Shown in pieces: positions 18,955 to 25,828 of a stretch of DNA of 64,000 nucleotides. The stretch comes from Candidatus Acidiferrales bacterium. Its GTDB lineage: Bacteria; Chloroflexota; Dormibacteria; Aeolococcales; Aeolococcaceae. The notes below the pieces were generated by a model. It searched no databases. It saw nothing but the letters and a program-made list of their open reading frames with translations, and had not been told where the DNA came from. Within the stretch, counting starts at the first letter, position 1. Each line of letters begins with the position of its first letter. Location of the stretch: positions 88,560-152,559 of the forward strand of contig DATLRX010000033.1 in the NCBI GenBank assembly GCA_035534435.1. Direction: 5' to 3'. The translations under genes were made by a program, and so were the position numbers.

Positions 18955-21176
18955 AGCGTCGCGTCGGCGACGGCGAAGATCTTCACTCCGTGGTCATCGA
19001 ACTTGATGACGAGCTCCTCGCCGCCTCTCGTCATCGTGCTCTTGAGCACCGTCCCCTCTCCGTACACGTTGTGGCCGATGCGCATGCCCTCGGTGAAGCG
19101 CTGCGGTGCGAGCACGACCGGGTTGGGCCTGGTCGCATGCCCGATCACCGCACGCCGCACGGTCCCGGAAGCGCGAATGTCGCCGAAGGTCTGGCTGCCG
19201 GGGCGAACCGCCACCTCGAGCATCTCTCCGGGGATCTCGCCGAGGAAGCGCGAGGCCTCCGCGAGCTGTGCGGTGCCGTAGAGGTGGCGCCGGAATGCGT
19301 GCAGCAGATACAGCCGGCGCCGCGCGCGGGTGATCCCGACGTACGTGAGCCGGCGTTCCTCGGCGATCCCGGCGTCTCCCTCCTCGAGCGCGCGCGAGTG
19401 CGGGAGCAGCCCCTCCTCCATCCCCGCGATGAAGACGACGCCGAACTCGAGCCCCTTGACCATGTGCAGCGTGATGAGCGTCACGCCCTGCGCGTCCTCG
19501 CGCATGGTGTCGACGTCGCTGACCAGCGCGACGTTCTCGAGGAACTGCACGAGACCGTCCGGCGCCGGGACGTCGGCGTACTCACCGGCGAGCCCCGCAA
19601 GCTCGAGAACGTTGGCCCATCGTTCGTTGCCCTCCTGCGTGCCGTCCTGGAGCATCTCGCGGTAGCCGGTCTCCTCGAGAAGATGTTCGAGGAGCACGGT
19701 GAGCGGGACACGCTGCGCGTCGGCGCTGAGCCGTTCCATCATCGCCGCGAAACCGTGCAACGCGGCCATGGCGGCGGGCCCGATGGCATCGTCCGTGTCG
19801 AGCATTTGCGCTGCCTCGAGCGGGCCGATTCCCTTCTTGCGCGCGAGCTTCTCCAGCTCCGAAACGCTCCGGTCCCCGATCTTCCGGCGCGGGGTGTTCA
19901 CAACACGCGCGAAGGAGACAGCGTCGCGCGGGTTCACGCAGAGGCGGAGATACGCGAGCACGTCCTTGACCTCGCGGCGGTCGTAGAAGCGCAGGCCGCC
20001 GACGAGTTGATACGGAATCCCCCGGCGCAGGAACACTTCCTCGAAGGCTCGCGACTGCGCATTGGTGCGGTACAGCACGGCGCATTCGGCGAGTGAGACG
20101 CCCTCGCGTCCGATGAGGTTCTCGATCTCGGCGCCGACGGCGAGCGCCTCCTCGCGCTCGTCGTACACGGAGATGAGCCGCACGGGATCTCCCACGGTGC
20201 TCTCCGTCCACAGCCGCTTCTCCGCGCGTTCCTCATTGTTGCGAATGACGGAATGCGCGATGTCGAGGATCGGCTGCGTGGACCGGTAGTTCTGCTCCAG
20301 CACCACTTTCGTCGCATCGGGAAAGTCGTGCTGAAACGAGAGAATGTTGCGCACGTCCGCGCCTCGAAAGCCGTAGACCGCTTGATCGTCATCGCCGACC
20401 ACAGTGACATTCCGATGTTTCGCCGCGAGGAGTTTCACCAGCTCGTACTGGGCCCTGTTGGTGTCCTGGTACTCGTCAACGAACAGGTGCAGGAACTTGT
20501 CCTGGTAGTACTCACGCACGGAGTCGACATCGCGAAGCAGGAAGAACGCGCGCAGCAGCAGGTCATCGAAATCGAGCGCCGACGCCTCGTCCAGCTCCCG
20601 CTCGTACGCGTAGTAGATGCGCGAGATCTGTTCCTCGAGCCCACCGGTCGCACGCGACTGGTAGTCGCGAGCGTCGAGCAACTCGTTCTTGGCGGCGCTG
20701 ATCGCATGCGCGACGCGGTTCGGCGTCAGGCGTTTCTCGTCGATCCCCTCGGCGCGGATCGCGTTGCGCAGTGCCGACAGCCTGTCCGACTCGTCGTAGA
20801 TGGTGTACCCGGGCGGGATGCCGATGGCATCGCCTTCACGGCGGAGCAGGCGCGCTCCGAGCGAGTGGAACGTGCCCAGCCACATGCCCTTGATGCTGTC
20901 CCCGATCAGCTGCTCCACGCGGGAGCGCATCTCGCGCGCCGCCTTGTTCGTGAAGGTCACAGCGCAGACCTCGTCGGGACGAACGCGGCGCGTGGCGATC
21001 ACGTACGCGATGCGATGCGTGAGCACCCGTGTCTTGCCGCTTCCCGCACCCGCGAAGATGAGGAGCGGTCCGTCCGGTGCCTCCACCGCCTCGCGTTGCG
21101 GCGGGTTCAGGCCCTCGAGCAGGGCCGTCGCCCCGATCGTCGCGCTCAGGCGTGCGCCCGGGTCGCGGGCGCCCCG
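18933..21176 (-). CDS. pcrA: ATP-dependent DNA helicase PcrA/UvrD
   Basis: GAGSGKT Walker [18 protein letters not shown] and remaining SF1 helicase motifs. Start is approximate because the track ORF has a 190-aa Arg-rich extension. Confidence 0.8.
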
Positions 21177-23159: not shown

Positions 23160-25828
23160 GCTCCGACCGGCACCGGCTCCGGCGGCGGCGCGGCGGCCTT
23201 CTCGAGCGTCACGCGGCGCACGAGGCCGAACGGCGTCTGCTCGTCCGACTGCCCCAGCGGGTTATCGGCAACCATGGCTAGAACAGCGTCGGCGTCGACG
23301 CCGACGGTCGCGAACACCTCCGCGGCCATGTCGTTGGCGTCGATGACGGCGACGCCGACGCGGCGTCCGGTGCGCCCACGAACCTCGGCGGCGATGCGCA
23401 ATGCCTCGCCCGACGCATCGAGCGGCGACTTGGTCGCCCATGTGTCGTACGGCGGGAGGTTCAGCGAGGACGGTCCGTCGATCGCGTTGACACCGTGGCC
23501 CGCCACACGGTAGAAGATGCCGCGCATCCCGAGCGGCTTGGTGACGGCCGCCGCGGCGGCGGCGAGCAGTATCCGCGGGACGCCCGCCTCGTCGATGGCG
23601 AGTTGCATCGTCGTCGGATGGGCCAGCCCGATGCCCGTGGGCTCGTGGCTCACGTAGCGCGACAGCAGCCGGGCCGCGCGTGACACGGGGATCTCATCGA
23701 TCGGATACGAGCGGCCCTGGCTGATTGCAAGTGCTTTCTCGCTGATCAGCAGCACGTCGCCGTCCTCGATCGCCACCCCGCCCTTCTCGAACTGCTCGAG
23801 GCTGTCGCCGATGATCTGCATGAGATCCGCACCCGGCACGATCAGCGCCGAACGCAGCGGGTATCGCGCCCAGATGCGGCCTTTGTCCTCGAGGAAGAGG
23901 TGACGGCCCCAGTTGAGGCGAGCGCCGTCGAGCAGCGCCTGTCCGCCGGCCACCTTTGCGGCCGTGGCCTGGTCACCGCGGCGCACGAAGCCACCGTGAT
24001 AGCTGTGATCGTCGAGCGCGCGGGTCGAGCCGTCGATGTAGATGCGCAGCCAGACCTCGGCGTTCACCGCGCGCCAGAAGAACATCGATTCCTCGACCTC
24101 TCCGGCGCATGCGCGGCGGAAGCCCTCCGCCACGGCCGCGGCCTTCCAGTACGGTCGCCCGCGGAACGACGGCGAGCGCATGAGGCTCTGCAGCACCGCG
24201 CGCTGGCGCCGGTACCAGCGGAACTCCGGGGTGGTGAAGCCGATCTTCTTGCGCCGCCGCTCGACGGCGCGAGGCAGCGTCCCGTGCAGCGCCTGCCGCA
24301 CGATGGCGCGCGTCCATCCGTTGTGGATGATCGCGGTCCTCGGCAGCGTGAGGATGTAGTCGACCAGCTCCTGGTCGAGGAACGGCAGGCGGGCCTCGAG
24401 TGAGTGCGCCATCGACGCCCGGTCCTCGTACCGAAGCAGCGGCGGGAGGCTGTACGTCCGGAAATCCTGCAGCAGGCGGCGCTTCAGGTCGTCCGCCACG
24501 CGATCGTCGTCGGGGGGTTTGCGGCCGCGCGTGAACGCCGGGGAGAGCATCGATGCGACGTCCACGCGCTGGCCACGCTCGCGCAGGCGGCGGCGCACCA
24601 GGGGGCCGACGATGTCACGCAGCAACCAGGCCTCGTGCGCGAACTCCGTGTAGCGGCGCTCGCGCAGGAGCTGGCGCAGCAGGACGTAGGGGTAGTGGTC
24701 GTACCCGGCGAGCAGCTCGTCGCCCGCCTGACCGTCGAGGGTGACCGTGACCTGGCGCCTCGCGAGACGCATCACCATCCACATCGCGAACGGCGCCGAC
24801 GACACCATCGGCTCCTCCATGTGCCAGACCCACGCCTCGAGCTCGCGGATGAAGTCCTGGTCGCTGGGACTGACGGCGCTGTTGTCGGCGCCCGTCTTGT
24901 CGAGAACGCTTTTGATGTAGGCGCTCTCGTCGATTCGATCCCCCGGGAACACGGCCGAGAACGTCTTGAGCCGGTCACCGAGCGACTCGGTGTCCGGAAC
25001 ATGGTCGCGCAGCTGCTGCGCCATCACCGTGCAGATCGACGACGAGTCGAGACCACCGCTGAGGCAGATGCCGACCGGCACATCGGCGACGAGGCGGCGC
25101 TGCACTGCGCGCTCGAACACCGCGCGAAAGGCCTCCGGGCTCGCGTCGCCGTCCTCCGACAGGCGCGGCGTCCAGTACGTCGTCTCGGAGATGGCGCCGC
25201 CCTCGATGATCGCGAATGCGGCGGCGGGCACCTGGCGGATCCCGCGAAAGAACGTGCCGTCGTTGTGGTCGAACAATCCAAAGCGCAGGTACTCGTACAT
25301 CTGCTGCTCGTCGACCTCGCGCGGGAACGTCTCGTCCTGGAGGATCGCCTTGATCTCCGACGCGAAGATGACGCGCCCGTGGTGGCGCGCGTAGAACAGC
25401 GGCTTGATCCCGAAGTGGTCGCGCGCGAGCACGAGCTTCGGGCTCGCTGCGCGCCTGTCGAGGATCGCGAGCCCCCACATGCCGTTGAAACGCCGGAAGC
25501 AGTCCGTGCCCCACTCGGCGTACGCATGGAGCACGACCTCGGTGTCCGACGCGGTGTGGAAGGTGTGCCCGAGCGGTTCCAGCTCGGCGCGCAACTCCCG
25601 GTAGTTGTAGACCTCGCCGTTGTAGACGATCTGGAGCTTGCCGCCGTCCATCGCCATCGGCTGATTGCCGTGCGCGAGGTCGATGATGCTGAGCCGGCGG
25701 AACCCGAGCGAGGCGATCTCGTCCTCGTAGCGACCTTCGTCGTCGGGGCCACGATGCCGGATCGACTCCGTCATCGCAGTGAGCAGTGCGCTGTCCGGTG
25801 CGCCCCAGAATCCGGCGATGCCGCACAT
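23156..25828 (-). CDS. fusion protein: asparagine synthetase-like (glutamine amidotransferase + PP-loop synthetase) fused to a CofE-like (F420-0:gamma-glutamyl ligase fold) domain
   Basis: A single 890-codon frame. It starts MCGIAGFWG (Ntn Cys2) and carries SGGLDSS (PP-loop). The C-terminal ~260 aa contain GDVLLISEKALAISQGR, AIDGPSS and LPPYD...GRRVGVAVIDANDM in CofE motif order. No internal stop. Confidence 0.75.
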   Translation of the reverse strand: MCGIAGFWGAPDSALLTAMTESIRHRGPDDEGRYEDEIASLGFRRLSIIDLAHGNQPMAMDGGKLQIVYNGEVYNYRELRAELEPLGHTFHTASDTEVVLHAYAEWGTDCFRRFNGMWGLAILDRRAASPKLVLARDHFGIKPLFYARHHGRVIFASEIKAILQDETFPREVDEQQMYEYLRFGLFDHNDGTFFRGIRQVPAAAFAIIEGGAISETTYWTPRLSEDGDASPEAFRAVFERAVQRRLVADVPVGICLSGGLDSSSICTVMAQQLRDHVPDTESLGDRLKTFSAVFPGDRIDESAYIKSVLDKTGADNSAVSPSDQDFIRELEAWVWHMEEPMVSSAPFAMWMVMRLARRQVTVTLDGQAGDELLAGYDHYPYVLLRQLLRERRYTEFAHEAWLLRDIVGPLVRRRLRERGQRVDVASMLSPAFTRGRKPPDDDRVADDLKRRLLQDFRTYSLPPLLRYEDRASMAHSLEARLPFLDQELVDYILTLPRTAIIHNGWTRAIVRQALHGTLPRAVERRRKKIGFTTPEFRWYRRQRAVLQSLMRSPSFRGRPYWKAAAVAEGFRRACAGEVEESMFFWRAVNAEVWLRIYIDGSTRALDDHSYHGGFVRRGDQATAAKVAGGQALLDGARLNWGRHLFLEDKGRIWARYPLRSALIVPGADLMQIIGDSLEQFEKGGVAIEDGDVLLISEKALAISQGRSYPIDEIPVSRAARLLSRYVSHEPTGIGLAHPTTMQLAIDEAGVPRILLAAAAAAVTKPLGMRGIFYRVAGHGVNAIDGPSSLNLPPYDTWATKSPLDASGEALRIAAEVRGRTGRRVGVAVIDANDMAAEVFATVGVDADAVLAMVADNPLGQSDEQTPFGLVRRVTLEKAAAPPPEPVPVGA

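What the first reader, a model, noticed from the sequence alone, without database searches (positions are those of the whole stretch)
21146..25828. Single-chain fusion of an AsnB-type amidotransferase/synthetase with a CofE-like ligase domain, coupled to alr and a C-N hydrolase
The 890-aa ORF begins MCGIAG (class II glutamine amidotransferase nucleophile) and carries the asparagine-synthetase PP-loop SGGLDSS. With no intervening stop, it continues into a ~260-aa domain whose motif order matches my recollection of the F420-0:gamma-glutamyl ligase (CofE/FbiB-N) fold: GDVLLISEKALAISQGR, AIDGPSS, LPPYD...GRRVGVAVIDANDM. I do not know of a described AsnB-CofE fusion. Both halves catalyse ATP/GTP-dependent amide-bond chemistry, so this may be a two-step amidation/peptide-ligation enzyme. 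Its stop overlaps the alr start by 4 nt, and a nitrilase-superfamily hydrolase follows 5 nt later. In related actinobacteria alr usually sits next to tsaE, but here it has moved to this cluster.
Basis: partly seen in the sequence, partly recalled or inferred. Interest (0 to 1): 0.8.

Follow-up and report, generated by a model that had tools for sequence, protein, structure and literature searches.

The report
AsnB-like amidotransferase fused to CofE-like ligase
The 890-residue gene is a real, widely conserved but unstudied two-enzyme fusion, currently labelled "asparagine synthase", whose second half is a distant cousin of the cofactor-F420 ligase and, judging from its gene neighbours, more likely modifies cell-wall building blocks than makes F420 or asparagine.

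Summary
One ORF (23156..25828, minus strand) encodes a glutaminase, an Asn_synthase domain with the PP-loop, and a C-terminal PF01996 domain. Its stop overlaps the alr start by 4 nt, and a C-N hydrolase follows 4 nt later. It is not an assembly artefact or a one-off. The identical protein is on five independent assemblies, and the 120 best database clusters all share the architecture.

The AsnB half keeps the glutaminase residues and PP-loop. It lacks the Asp-binding D/R and has an invariant Gln where E. coli AsnB has Glu348, so it is probably not an asparagine synthetase.

Across phyla the CofE-like gene is fused or adjacent to alr, murJ, other flippases, PBP1A, YkuD, Wzy_C, DivIVA and Amidase_3.

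Best inference (about 0.45): a two-site enzyme that modifies carboxylates of a peptidoglycan precursor. I found no characterised member. This is a new variant of known kinds.

The parts
23156..25828 (-). Whole fused gene, 890 aa: glutaminase + AsnB-type synthetase + CofE-like domain
   Evidence: ORF list; Pfam; identical protein on 5 independent contigs; same architecture in the 120 best clusters
25259..25828 (-). Class II (Ntn) glutamine amidotransferase domain, residues 1-~190, nucleophile Cys2
   Evidence: GATase_7/GATase_6 hits. C2, R44/R45, N70, G71, E72 and D95 are invariant in 28 full-length homologues
24044..25129 (-). AsnB-type synthetase (adenylating) domain, residues 234-595
   Evidence: PF00733 257.5 bits. 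Best solved relative is 7YLZ hydroxyamidotransferase, E 8e-64 over the full length; E. coli AsnB 1CT9 gives 3e-38
25040..25060 (-). PP-loop SGGLDSS (residues 257-263)
   Evidence: Sequence. S257, G258, G259 and S262 are invariant and L260/D261 at least 90% conserved. SGG[LI]DS is present in 42 of the 44 AsnB partners
24728..24730 (-). Gln367 in LDGQAGDELLAGY, at the position of E. coli AsnB Glu348
   Evidence: HMMER alignments to 1CT9 and 7YLZ, both of which have Glu there. Invariant in A3. Gln in all 44 AsnB partners of the CofE-like domain, fused or split
23924..24043 (-). Linker, residues ~596-635, poorly conserved
   Evidence: Alignment A1/A3. The full-length model shows short helices here
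23204..23923 (-). CofE-fold domain, residues ~636-875. Family motifs: SEK(696-698), QGR(704-706), GIGL, TMQLA, AIDGP(782-786), LPPYD, IDAND(829-833), DNPLGQSDEQTP(855-866)
23330..23344 (-). IDAND motif. It aligns to CofE I148-T-D150-T-N-G153-R-C155: D150 is kept as D830, and G153 is replaced by invariant D833
   Evidence: HMMER alignment to 2G9I/7ULD. G153-C155 is named as an F420 contact in PMC10861534
22026..23159 (-). alr (alanine racemase, 377 aa), GTG start overlapping the fusion's stop (GTGA)
   Evidence: Pfam Ala_racemase_N + _C; TIGR00492 above cut-off; junction sequence. alr lies within 3 kb downstream of the fusion in 17 of the 80 loci, including three Actinomycetota (L026-L028)
21146..22021 (-). 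C-N hydrolase (nitrilase-superfamily amidase, 291 aa), starting 4 nt after the alr stop
   Evidence: PF00795 166.6 bits. Below every NCBIfam equivalog cut-off. Junction. Found next to alr only in the Dormibacteria-class loci

Best explanation
The gene encodes a conserved bifunctional enzyme with two separate carboxylate-activating sites.

The N-terminal 600 residues are an AsnB-like glutamine-dependent amidotransferase. Cys2 hydrolyses glutamine to ammonia, and the PP-loop domain adenylates a carboxylate that is not aspartate.

The C-terminal ~240 residues are a divergent CofE-fold domain. By analogy with CofE, it would use a nucleoside triphosphate and divalent metal to turn a carboxylate into an acyl phosphate and join it to an amine.

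The substrate is not F420. The most likely substrate is the peptide of a cytoplasmic or lipid-linked peptidoglycan (or related envelope) precursor, modified before it is flipped. The AsnB half would then do LtsA/AsnB1-type amidation, and the CofE-like half would add an amino acid or amine to another carboxylate of the same molecule. Here the gene is translationally coupled to alr, which could supply D-alanine.

Shown: the domain composition, the fold, the residue conservation, and the conservation of the fusion and its neighbours.

Inferred: ligase activity of the C-domain, the cell-wall substrate, and the order of the steps.
For: Architecture and conservation are shown. The glutaminase residues and PP-loop are invariant.

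The Asp-binding D384/R387 of E. coli AsnB align to L464/Y467, and about 60 extra residues lie in that region. PMC8554201 lists lack of the Asp-binding D/R plus an extra loop as the marks of mDAP-amidating AsnB homologues.

The CofE fold is the only structural match. CofE D150 is kept as invariant D830, and the family has further invariant Asp, Glu, Asn, Gln, Lys and Arg residues.

The AsnB and CofE-like parts are separate but directly adjacent ORFs in L069 (Thermoleophilia) and L083 (WWE3). Both carry the same Gln signature, which indicates a functional partnership.

The context of the CofE-like gene points to the envelope in several phyla:
- alr lies directly downstream in 17 loci.
- murJ lies directly downstream in 9 Patescibacteria loci.
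- A Polysacc_synt flippase lies upstream in L030, L036 and L062, with PBP1A also downstream in L036 and L062, and PBP1A alone downstream in L043.
- Wzy_C is adjacent in L058, L080, L083 and L084.
- YkuD is adjacent in L038, and an M23/LysM protein and an S11+YkuD protein in L088.
- DivIVA is adjacent in L069.

Domain fusions of the same CofE-like clade exist with Amidase_3 (four 50%-identity clusters). The one such fusion whose context could be read lies next to a SpoVB/MurJ-like flippase. Fusions also exist with a membrane CDP-alcohol phosphatidyltransferase, Peptidase_M20, adenylate kinase and GNAT.

The window itself is a housekeeping and cell-wall region with glmS, a murA-like gene, mreB, a CHAP protein and a GT4 transferase.
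Against: No biochemical evidence exists for any member.

The neighbour census used reference proteins picked from the neighbours themselves, so 39 of 80 is not a statistic. Many of the Dormibacteria and Patescibacteria loci are syntenic relatives, not independent observations.

The Acidimicrobiia loci L055, L066, L079 and L086 carry a HAD-acyltransferase gene upstream instead of a cell-wall gene. The Microbacterium and several other stand-alone loci show no envelope neighbour.

Only part of the CofE site could be aligned, so nucleotide and metal binding by the C-domain is not demonstrated.

Gln at the Glu348 position might impair adenylation in the AsnB half. From memory, Meyer et al. 2010 (Biochemistry) showed that a carboxylate is needed there in E. 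coli AS-B, while beta-lactam synthetase has Tyr at that position and still adenylates.

Amidase_3 enzymes usually act outside the cell, which fits poorly with an NTP-dependent partner. However, the fused proteins show no obvious signal peptide (by eye).
Confidence: 0.45

Rival explanations
1. MurT/GatD-like division of labour. The CofE-like domain alone activates the target carboxylate as an acyl phosphate. The AsnB part serves mainly as glutaminase and ammonia channel, and its synthetase site is altered. The whole protein would then perform one amidation, for example of D-iso-glutamate in lipid II.
For: Gln invariably replaces the Glu348 equivalent in every AsnB partner of the CofE-like domain, and this residue is tied to acyl-adenylate formation in E. 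coli AsnB (own knowledge, Meyer et al. 2010). The glutaminase residues are invariant. The envelope context is the same as for the best explanation.
Against: The PP-loop SGGLDS and many synthetase-domain residues are invariant, which argues for retained ATP chemistry. Stand-alone CofE-like genes in Patescibacteria have no glutaminase next to them. Beta-lactam synthetase adenylates without Glu at this position (own knowledge).
Confidence: 0.15
2. Small-molecule pathway. The operon would make an amidated dipeptide-like solute or natural product, for example one containing D-alanine. This would be analogous to NAGGN synthesis (ligase + acetyltransferase + AsnO amidotransferase) or to TsnB9-type tailoring, with the C-N hydrolase as the degrading or maturing amidase.
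For: The best solved relative of the N-part is the trichostatin hydroxyamidotransferase 7YLZ. There is sizeable but sub-threshold similarity to the NAGGN amidotransferase model TIGR03104, 326.9 bits against a cut-off of 570. The CofE-like domain is fused to GNAT in some lineages and to AsnB in others, which mirrors the three NAGGN activities. It is tightly coupled to alr and an amidase.
Against: No other biosynthetic-cluster genes are nearby, and the locus is housekeeping. The family is kept in reduced Patescibacteria genomes and sits repeatedly next to murJ, PBP and flippase genes. The C-N hydrolase linkage is confined to one class.
Confidence: 0.15
3. A fusion of convenience. The N-part would be the cell's ordinary asparagine synthetase, and the C-domain an unrelated enzyme that happened to fuse, with no shared pathway. 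alr and the hydrolase would be neighbours by chance.
For: TIGR01536 asn_synth_AEB is passed with 458 bits against a cut-off of 267, and all databases name the protein asparagine synthase. B. subtilis AsnB is reported as possibly promiscuous (PMC8554201).
Against: The Asp-binding D/R are not conserved and Glu348 is Gln. The AsnB partners form a signature-bearing set that stays with the CofE-like gene whether fused or split, across Dormibacterota, Actinomycetota and a WWE3 genome.
Confidence: 0.1
4. The C-domain is a true F420:glutamate ligase, and the fusion makes or modifies the F420 tail.
For: It passes the Pfam PF01996 threshold and has the CofE fold.
Against: It scores 19.8 and 17.7 bits against CofE equivalog cut-offs of 180.65 and 274. 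A family profile reaches PDB CofE only at E 2e-4. The F420-contacting stretch G153-C155 is replaced. No Pfam match to an F420-pathway gene family (such as CofD, PF01933) was found among the window ORFs that were scanned. Close relatives at 41-49% identity are common in Patescibacteria, which are not known to make F420 (general knowledge).
Confidence: 0.03

Closest known systems
CofE / FbiB N-domain (F420-0:gamma-glutamyl ligase, PF01996; PDB 2PHN, 2G9I, 7ULD)
   Different: TM-score is only 0.54-0.58. It is far below the CofE equivalog cut-offs. The F420-contacting G153-C155 becomes D-x-A with an invariant Asp. It has its own invariant motifs (GIGLxxPxTMQLA, AIDGP, LPPY, DNPLGQxxEQTP). It occurs in lineages without known F420, and its fusion partners are AsnB, GNAT, Amidase_3, M20, adenylate kinase and others, not the nitroreductase-like domain of FbiB.
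LtsA / AsnB / AsnB1 (AsnB-type amidotransferases that amidate meso-diaminopimelate in peptidoglycan precursors)
   Same: Class II glutaminase plus PP-loop synthetase. It lacks the Asp-binding D/R of true asparagine synthetases and has extra residues in that region, which are the marks listed in PMC8554201. It has cell-wall gene neighbours, including L,D-transpeptidase genes. LtsA acts on lipid intermediates (PMC7920481 abstract).
   Different: I found no report of a CofE-like domain in those enzymes. Gln at the Glu348 position is a signature of this group relative to the three solved relatives.
TsnB9 hydroxyamidotransferase (PDB 7YLZ)
   Same: It is the closest solved sequence relative of the N-part (E 8e-64, aligned end to end, 1-596 vs 1-604). 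It is an AsnB-like enzyme that works on a carboxylic acid other than aspartate.
   Different: It has no C-terminal CofE-like domain, it keeps Glu at the 348-equivalent position, and it is named as a hydroxyamidotransferase from a secondary-metabolite pathway.
MurT/GatD (lipid II D-iso-glutamate amidation complex)
   Same: A functional analogy only. An acyl-phosphate-forming ligase module works with a glutaminase on a peptidoglycan precursor (own knowledge; also the topic of PMC10484409).
   Different: The folds are unrelated: a Mur-ligase fold and a class I glutaminase, against a CofE fold and a class II glutaminase with its own adenylating domain.
E. coli / human asparagine synthetase (1CT9, 6GQ3)
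   Same: Same domain order. The glutaminase residues and PP-loop are conserved, and it passes TIGR01536.
   Different: D384/R387 align to L464/Y467, Glu348 is Gln367, there is an insertion of about 60 residues between the equivalents of residues 361 and 389, and there is an extra 290-residue C-terminal extension.

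Membership tests
CofE (F420-0:gamma-glutamyl ligase, functional family) | Matches the Pfam PF01996 domain above the gathering score | tested here: met
   51.9 bits against a cut-off of 25; residues 659-838 match profile positions 3-156 of 218
CofE (F420-0:gamma-glutamyl ligase, functional family) | Passes the curated equivalog models for CofE (TIGR01916, NF009809) | tested here: not met
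   19.8 bits against 180.65, and 17.7 bits against 274
CofE (F420-0:gamma-glutamyl ligase, functional family) | CofE three-dimensional fold | tested here: met
CofE (F420-0:gamma-glutamyl ligase, functional family) | F420 (isoalloxazine) binding elements: G153-C155, F92, and R234 of the dimer partner (PMC10861534) | tested here: inconclusive
   G153-R154-C155 aligns to D833-M834-A835, with D833 invariant. This is not the CofE sequence, but those contacts are partly backbone. F92 and R234 lie outside the alignable segments
CofE (F420-0:gamma-glutamyl ligase, functional family) | Metal and GTP site residues | tested here: inconclusive
   CofE D150 aligns with invariant D830, T151 with A831 and N152 with N832. 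The other ligands could not be mapped: the full CofE sequence was not obtainable and the structure papers are not held
CofE (F420-0:gamma-glutamyl ligase, functional family) | Genomic company of other F420 biosynthesis genes (cofC, cofD, cofG/H or fbiC) | tested here: not met
   No Pfam match to these gene families among the window ORFs scanned, and none among the neighbours sampled in other genomes. The rest of the genome is not visible
CofE (F420-0:gamma-glutamyl ligase, functional family) | GTP-dependent addition of L-glutamate to F420-0 | not testable with these tools
   Needs an enzyme assay
Asparagine synthetase B (glutamine-hydrolysing, EC 6.3.5.4) | N-terminal Cys nucleophile and class II glutaminase residues | tested here: met
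   C2, R44/R45, N70, G71, E72 and D95 are invariant in 28 homologues
Asparagine synthetase B (glutamine-hydrolysing, EC 6.3.5.4) | PP-loop SGGxDS | tested here: met
   SGGLDSS at residues 257-263, conserved
Asparagine synthetase B (glutamine-hydrolysing, EC 6.3.5.4) | Curated model TIGR01536 | tested here: met
   458 bits against a cut-off of 267.1. The model is broad
Asparagine synthetase B (glutamine-hydrolysing, EC 6.3.5.4) | Aspartate-binding Asp and Arg (E. coli D384, R387) | tested here: not met
   The HMMER alignment to 1CT9 places D469 opposite N389. Extending it without gaps puts L464 opposite D384 and Y467 opposite R387. This rests on a pairwise alignment next to an insertion
Asparagine synthetase B (glutamine-hydrolysing, EC 6.3.5.4) | Glu348 of the SGEGxDE motif | tested here: not met
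   LDGQAGDE: Gln367, invariant
LtsA/AsnB1-type meso-diaminopimelate amidotransferase | Lacks the Asp-binding D/R (criterion in PMC8554201) | tested here: met
LtsA/AsnB1-type meso-diaminopimelate amidotransferase | [quoted passage not shown] | tested here: inconclusive
   Residues 380-469 span what is 361-389 in E. coli AsnB, about 60 extra residues. Whether this is the same loop as in LtsA/AsnB1 was not tested
LtsA/AsnB1-type meso-diaminopimelate amidotransferase | Groups phylogenetically with proven mDAP amidotransferases | not tested
   No LtsA, AsnB1 or B. subtilis AsnB sequences could be obtained
LtsA/AsnB1-type meso-diaminopimelate amidotransferase | Amidated mDAP in the organism's peptidoglycan | not testable with these tools
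   Needs muropeptide analysis of an uncultured lineage

The most novel reading that the evidence does not exclude
The CofE-like domain defines a new class of peptidoglycan-precursor ligase. It would be a cytoplasmic, NTP-dependent enzyme that attaches an amino acid or amine to a free carboxylate of the stem peptide (the alpha-carboxyl of D-iso-Glu or the epsilon-carboxyl of mDAP) before MurJ-type flipping. In Dormibacterota and Actinomycetota it is fused to an LtsA-like amidotransferase, so the two sites together would build substituents such as an amino-acid amide. D-alanine amide or glycine amide on D-Glu are old chemotaxonomic observations for which I know of no assigned enzyme (own recollection of Schleifer & Kandler, not verified here). 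The GNAT, Amidase_3 and M20 fusions in other phyla would be variants of the same precursor-editing or recycling theme.
Probability: 0.25. Interest if true: 0.85.

Novelty: new variant of a known kind. Interest (0 to 1): 0.6.

Why it matters
Hundreds of database entries with this architecture are labelled "asparagine synthase (glutamine-hydrolyzing)", and the stand-alone relatives are labelled "F420-0:gamma-glutamyl ligase". Both labels are probably wrong, and they would distort metabolic reconstructions of Dormibacterota, Acidimicrobiia and Patescibacteria, for example through false F420 or asparagine capability.

If the cell-wall reading is right, the CofE fold gains a second, F420-independent job. 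A missing class of stem-peptide-modifying enzyme would also become testable, in lineages whose walls are almost unknown. Peptidoglycan amidation governs cross-linking by L,D-transpeptidases, lysozyme resistance and innate immune recognition in known systems (PMC8554201, PMC5485061).

The fused and split forms offer a ready experimental handle.

Tried and rejected
1. Frameshift or assembly artefact: rejected. The identical protein is on 5 independent contigs and there are 120 clusters with the same architecture. The split version in L005 lies on a long-read contig whose other genes are also fragmented.

2. Literature searches for a described AsnB-CofE fusion or a CofE-like protein in Patescibacteria or the cell wall found nothing relevant.

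3. Mapping all CofE metal/GTP ligands failed. The family profile aligns to PDB CofE in only two short stretches. A search with the visible 54-residue CofE fragment returned one 73-aa fragment. Nocek 2007 and Bashiri 2016 are not held, and PMC10861534 names no metal ligands.

4. The afdb50 fold library was unavailable.

5. The unbiased neighbour census by ORF clustering was blurred by antisense ORFs in high-GC loci. I therefore added a tblastn census with reference proteins chosen afterwards. It is descriptive, not a test.

6. The Microbacterium-type stand-alone homologues sit between recR, an ORF-free stretch (likely RNA genes) and purU. This was uninformative.

7. The promoter/terminator scan of the operon gave nothing usable.

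8. An F420 role was considered and rejected (see the rival explanations).

9. I did not inspect the inter-domain geometry of the full-length model, because coordinates and PAE are not exposed.

Full report
**1. The observation**

The window has a single 890-codon ORF on the minus strand, 23156..25828.
- Pfam finds a class II glutaminase (GATase_7, residues 44-164), Asn_synthase (234-595, 257.5 bits) and F420_ligase PF01996 (659-838, 51.9 bits against a cut-off of 25).
- The stop overlaps the GTG start of alr as GTGA. alr passes the alanine racemase equivalog.
- A 291-residue C-N hydrolase starts 4 nt after the alr stop.
- The groEL stop lies 102 nt upstream of the fusion's ATG.
- The identical protein, with identical neighbours, is on five contigs from separate ENA and JGI assemblies. 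The fusion is therefore not a sequencing or assembly artefact.

**2. Where it comes from**

The closest species-representative genomes are all 'Candidatus Dormibacteraeota/Dormiibacterota' MAGs, with up to 95% identity in the AsnB part and 91-93% in the C-domain. The window is a Dormibacterota housekeeping region.

Read along the minus strand, the gene order is: glmS, acpS-nnrD, a CHAP protein (on the opposite strand), thiL, tsaE, tsaB, an inserted two-component/ABC block, rimI, tsaD, dtxR, FTR1, groES, groEL, fusion, alr, C-N hydrolase, pcrA, ligA, uvrC, rapZ-C, whiA, gap.

The organism, however, is not an actinobacterium.

**3. How common the fusion is**

Searching with the whole protein, the 120 best 90%-identity clusters all carry GATase + Asn_synthase + F420_ligase. 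Nearly all are 853-930 residues long, and identity runs down to 59%. Wherever a source gives a name, it is 'asparagine synthase (glutamine-hydrolyzing)'.

Among the 80 best-matching species-representative genome loci:
- The two parts lie in one open frame in about 40, from Dormibacterota, Acidimicrobiia, Thermoleophilia, Solirubrobacteraceae and a 'Chloroflexi' MAG.
- They are separate, directly adjacent ORFs in a Thermoleophilia genome (L069) and a WWE3/Patescibacteria genome (L083).
- The C-domain is a stand-alone 230-260-residue protein in most Patescibacteria and in WOR-3, Armatimonadota, Bacillota, Thermotogota and others.

A profile of the C-domain finds 363 clusters (50% identity) at E <= 1e-30 and 1,495 at E <= 1e-3 among 1.84 billion representatives.

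**4. The C-terminal domain**

At sequence level it is remote.
- phmmer and a family profile reach PDB CofE only at E about 2e-4, in two short stretches.
- The CofE equivalog models score 19.8 and 17.7 bits against cut-offs of 180.65 and 274.
- In the aligned stretch, CofE I148-T-D150-T-N-G153-R-C155 corresponds to V-I-D830-A-N-D833-M-A. D150 is kept as an invariant Asp. G153-C155, which PMC10861534 names as an isoalloxazine contact, is replaced, and position 153 is an invariant Asp.
- The clade has its own near-invariant motifs: SEKAVAISQGR, GIGLxxPxTMQLA, RILLAA, FYRxAG, AIDGP, LPPY(N/D), IDANDxG and DNPLGQSxEQTP.

Such conservation of polar residues argues for a catalytic domain. That it is an NTP-dependent amide ligase is inferred from the fold and the retained Asp, not shown.

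**5. The N-terminal part**

The glutaminase residues (C2, R44/45, N70, G71, E72, D95) and the PP-loop are invariant.

The best solved relative is the hydroxyamidotransferase 7YLZ (E 8e-64, end to end). E. coli AsnB is much further away (3e-38, in three pieces).

Three features separate it from true asparagine synthetases:
- Relative to E. coli AsnB, the Asp-binding D384 and R387 fall opposite L464 and Y467.
- About 60 extra residues lie between the equivalents of residues 361 and 389.
- The Glu348 position is Gln367.

This Gln is present in all 44 AsnB partners of the CofE-like gene, fused or split.

PMC8554201 gives 'no Asp-binding D/R plus an extra loop' as the marks of the AsnB homologues that amidate meso-diaminopimelate in peptidoglycan. 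I could not bring LtsA or AsnB1 sequences in, so clade membership is untested.

From memory (Meyer et al. 2010, Biochemistry), a carboxylate at position 348 is needed for acyl-adenylate formation in E. coli AS-B, whereas beta-lactam synthetase has Tyr there. The Gln is therefore a signature, not proof of inactivity.

**6. Context of the CofE-like gene across phyla**

- alr follows the fusion directly in the Dormibacteria-class loci and in three Actinomycetota loci whose other flanks differ (L026-L028).
- In nine Patescibacteria loci the stand-alone or GNAT-fused gene sits directly upstream of murJ.
- In other Dormibacterota and 'Chloroflexi' loci it lies between a Polysacc_synt flippase and a class A PBP (L036, L062; PBP alone in L043; flippase alone in L030).
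- Other immediate neighbours are Wzy_C proteins (L058, L080, L083, L084), an L,D-transpeptidase with a PG-binding domain (L038), an M23/LysM peptidase and an S11+YkuD protein (L088), C39-like peptidases (L078, L089) and DivIVA (L069).

In all, 39 of 80 loci have such a gene within 3 kb, usually within 100 bp on the same strand. This count is descriptive, because the reference set was chosen after looking, and many loci are syntenic relatives.

Counter-examples exist. Four Acidimicrobiia loci (L055, L066, L079, L086) have a HAD-acyltransferase gene upstream. Several stand-alone loci and the Microbacterium-type loci show nothing envelope-related.

**7. Other fusions of the same clade**

The representative search revealed further fusions:
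- Amidase_3, the N-acetylmuramoyl-L-alanine amidase domain, in four 50%-identity clusters. No signal peptide is obvious by eye.
- A membrane CDP-alcohol phosphatidyltransferase.
- Peptidase_M20.
- Adenylate kinase.
- HD_4.
- GNAT.

One Amidase_3 fusion lies between recN and a SpoVB/MurJ-like flippase in a biogas-reactor genome.

A muramoyl-alanine amidase partner, and repeated flippase neighbours in unrelated lineages, are the strongest hints that the substrate is a peptidoglycan (or related lipid-linked) precursor handled at the cytoplasmic face of the membrane.

**8. Mechanism proposed**

Shown: two intact-looking catalytic modules in one chain, a conserved partnership between them, and an envelope-gene context.

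Inferred:
- The AsnB half hydrolyses glutamine and amidates an adenylated, non-aspartate carboxylate, as LtsA/AsnB1 do on mDAP of lipid intermediates (PMC7920481 abstract).
- The CofE-like half activates another carboxylate with an NTP and couples it to an amine.
- alr may supply D-alanine, either as that amine or simply for the same precursor.
- The C-N hydrolase, linked only in one class, may remove or recycle an amide.

I put about 0.45 on this. The main rival (0.15) is a MurT/GatD-like arrangement, in which the CofE-like site does the activation and the AsnB part mainly delivers ammonia. A small-molecule pathway gets 0.15, an unconnected fusion 0.10 and an F420 role 0.03.

**9. Comparison and novelty**

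The protein works like a combination of an LtsA-type amidotransferase and a CofE-type ligase. It fails the tested membership criteria for CofE proper and for asparagine synthetase proper.

Both superfamilies are known, and the architecture is abundant in databases. However, I found no paper on it and no curated model specific to it. I class it as a new variant of known kinds.

It deserves moderate-to-high interest, because it suggests an F420-independent role for the CofE fold in cell-envelope biosynthesis and exposes systematic mis-annotation.

Noticed in passing
window 35872-36915 (-): A thiL-like gene (AIRS + AIRS_C) sits directly upstream of tsaE, at the position where many actinobacteria carry alr. 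alr itself lies about 13 kb further along, after groEL and the fusion.
   Followed up: partly
window 14481-14894 (-): The ORF between uvrC and whiA matches only the RapZ C-terminal domain (PapZ_C, 137 aa). The usual N-terminal P-loop half of RapZ is not part of this ORF.
   Followed up: no
window 38158-39396 (-): A single ORF combines holo-ACP synthase (ACPS) with the NAD(P)H-hydrate dehydratase domain (Carb_kinase).
   Followed up: no
window 37076-38161 (+), 45150-47468 (-), 58645-59805 (-): Several cell-wall or cell-shape genes share the window: a CHAP-domain protein, an mreB-like gene next to a murA-like EPSP_synthase-family gene, and a glycosyltransferase family 4 (MraY/WecA-type) gene.
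   Followed up: no
L095-L097, 6001-7647 (4158-5804 in L097): In a biogas-fermenter organism the CofE-like domain is fused to an Amidase_3 domain preceded by a ~120-150-residue N-terminal region with no Pfam match. The gene lies between recN and a SpoVB/MurJ-like Polysacc_synt flippase.
   Followed up: partly
proteins P0250, P0259, P0316, P0243, P0061: The same CofE-like clade is also fused to Peptidase_M20, adenylate kinase, a membrane CDP-alcohol phosphatidyltransferase, an HD_4 domain and a GNAT acetyltransferase.
   Followed up: partly
protein P0034 (438 aa, on a 124-kb ENA contig): One relative is called as a single protein with F420_ligase + Ala_racemase_N. The CofE-like end and alr are read through there, from either a lost stop or a gene-calling or sequencing error at the GTGA overlap.
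   Followed up: no
L005 12301-13296: In a related Dormibacterota long-read contig the pcrA/uvrD gene downstream of the cluster shows a weak Intein_splicing hit. The same contig has many fragmented genes, so this may be noise.
   Followed up: no
L093 2526-4949 and L006 3854-6001: In Microbacterium-type genomes the stand-alone homologue is preceded by about 2.4 kb without convincing ORFs, downstream of recR. The stretch just before the gene translates on the reverse strand to a peptide of a kind I associate with tRNA genes (by eye), so I suspect RNA genes; no tRNA or rRNA search was run.
   Followed up: no
window 6948-9019 (+): Two adjacent ORFs (267 and 426 aa) with high GC3 have no Pfam match at E <= 1e-5.
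   Followed up: no
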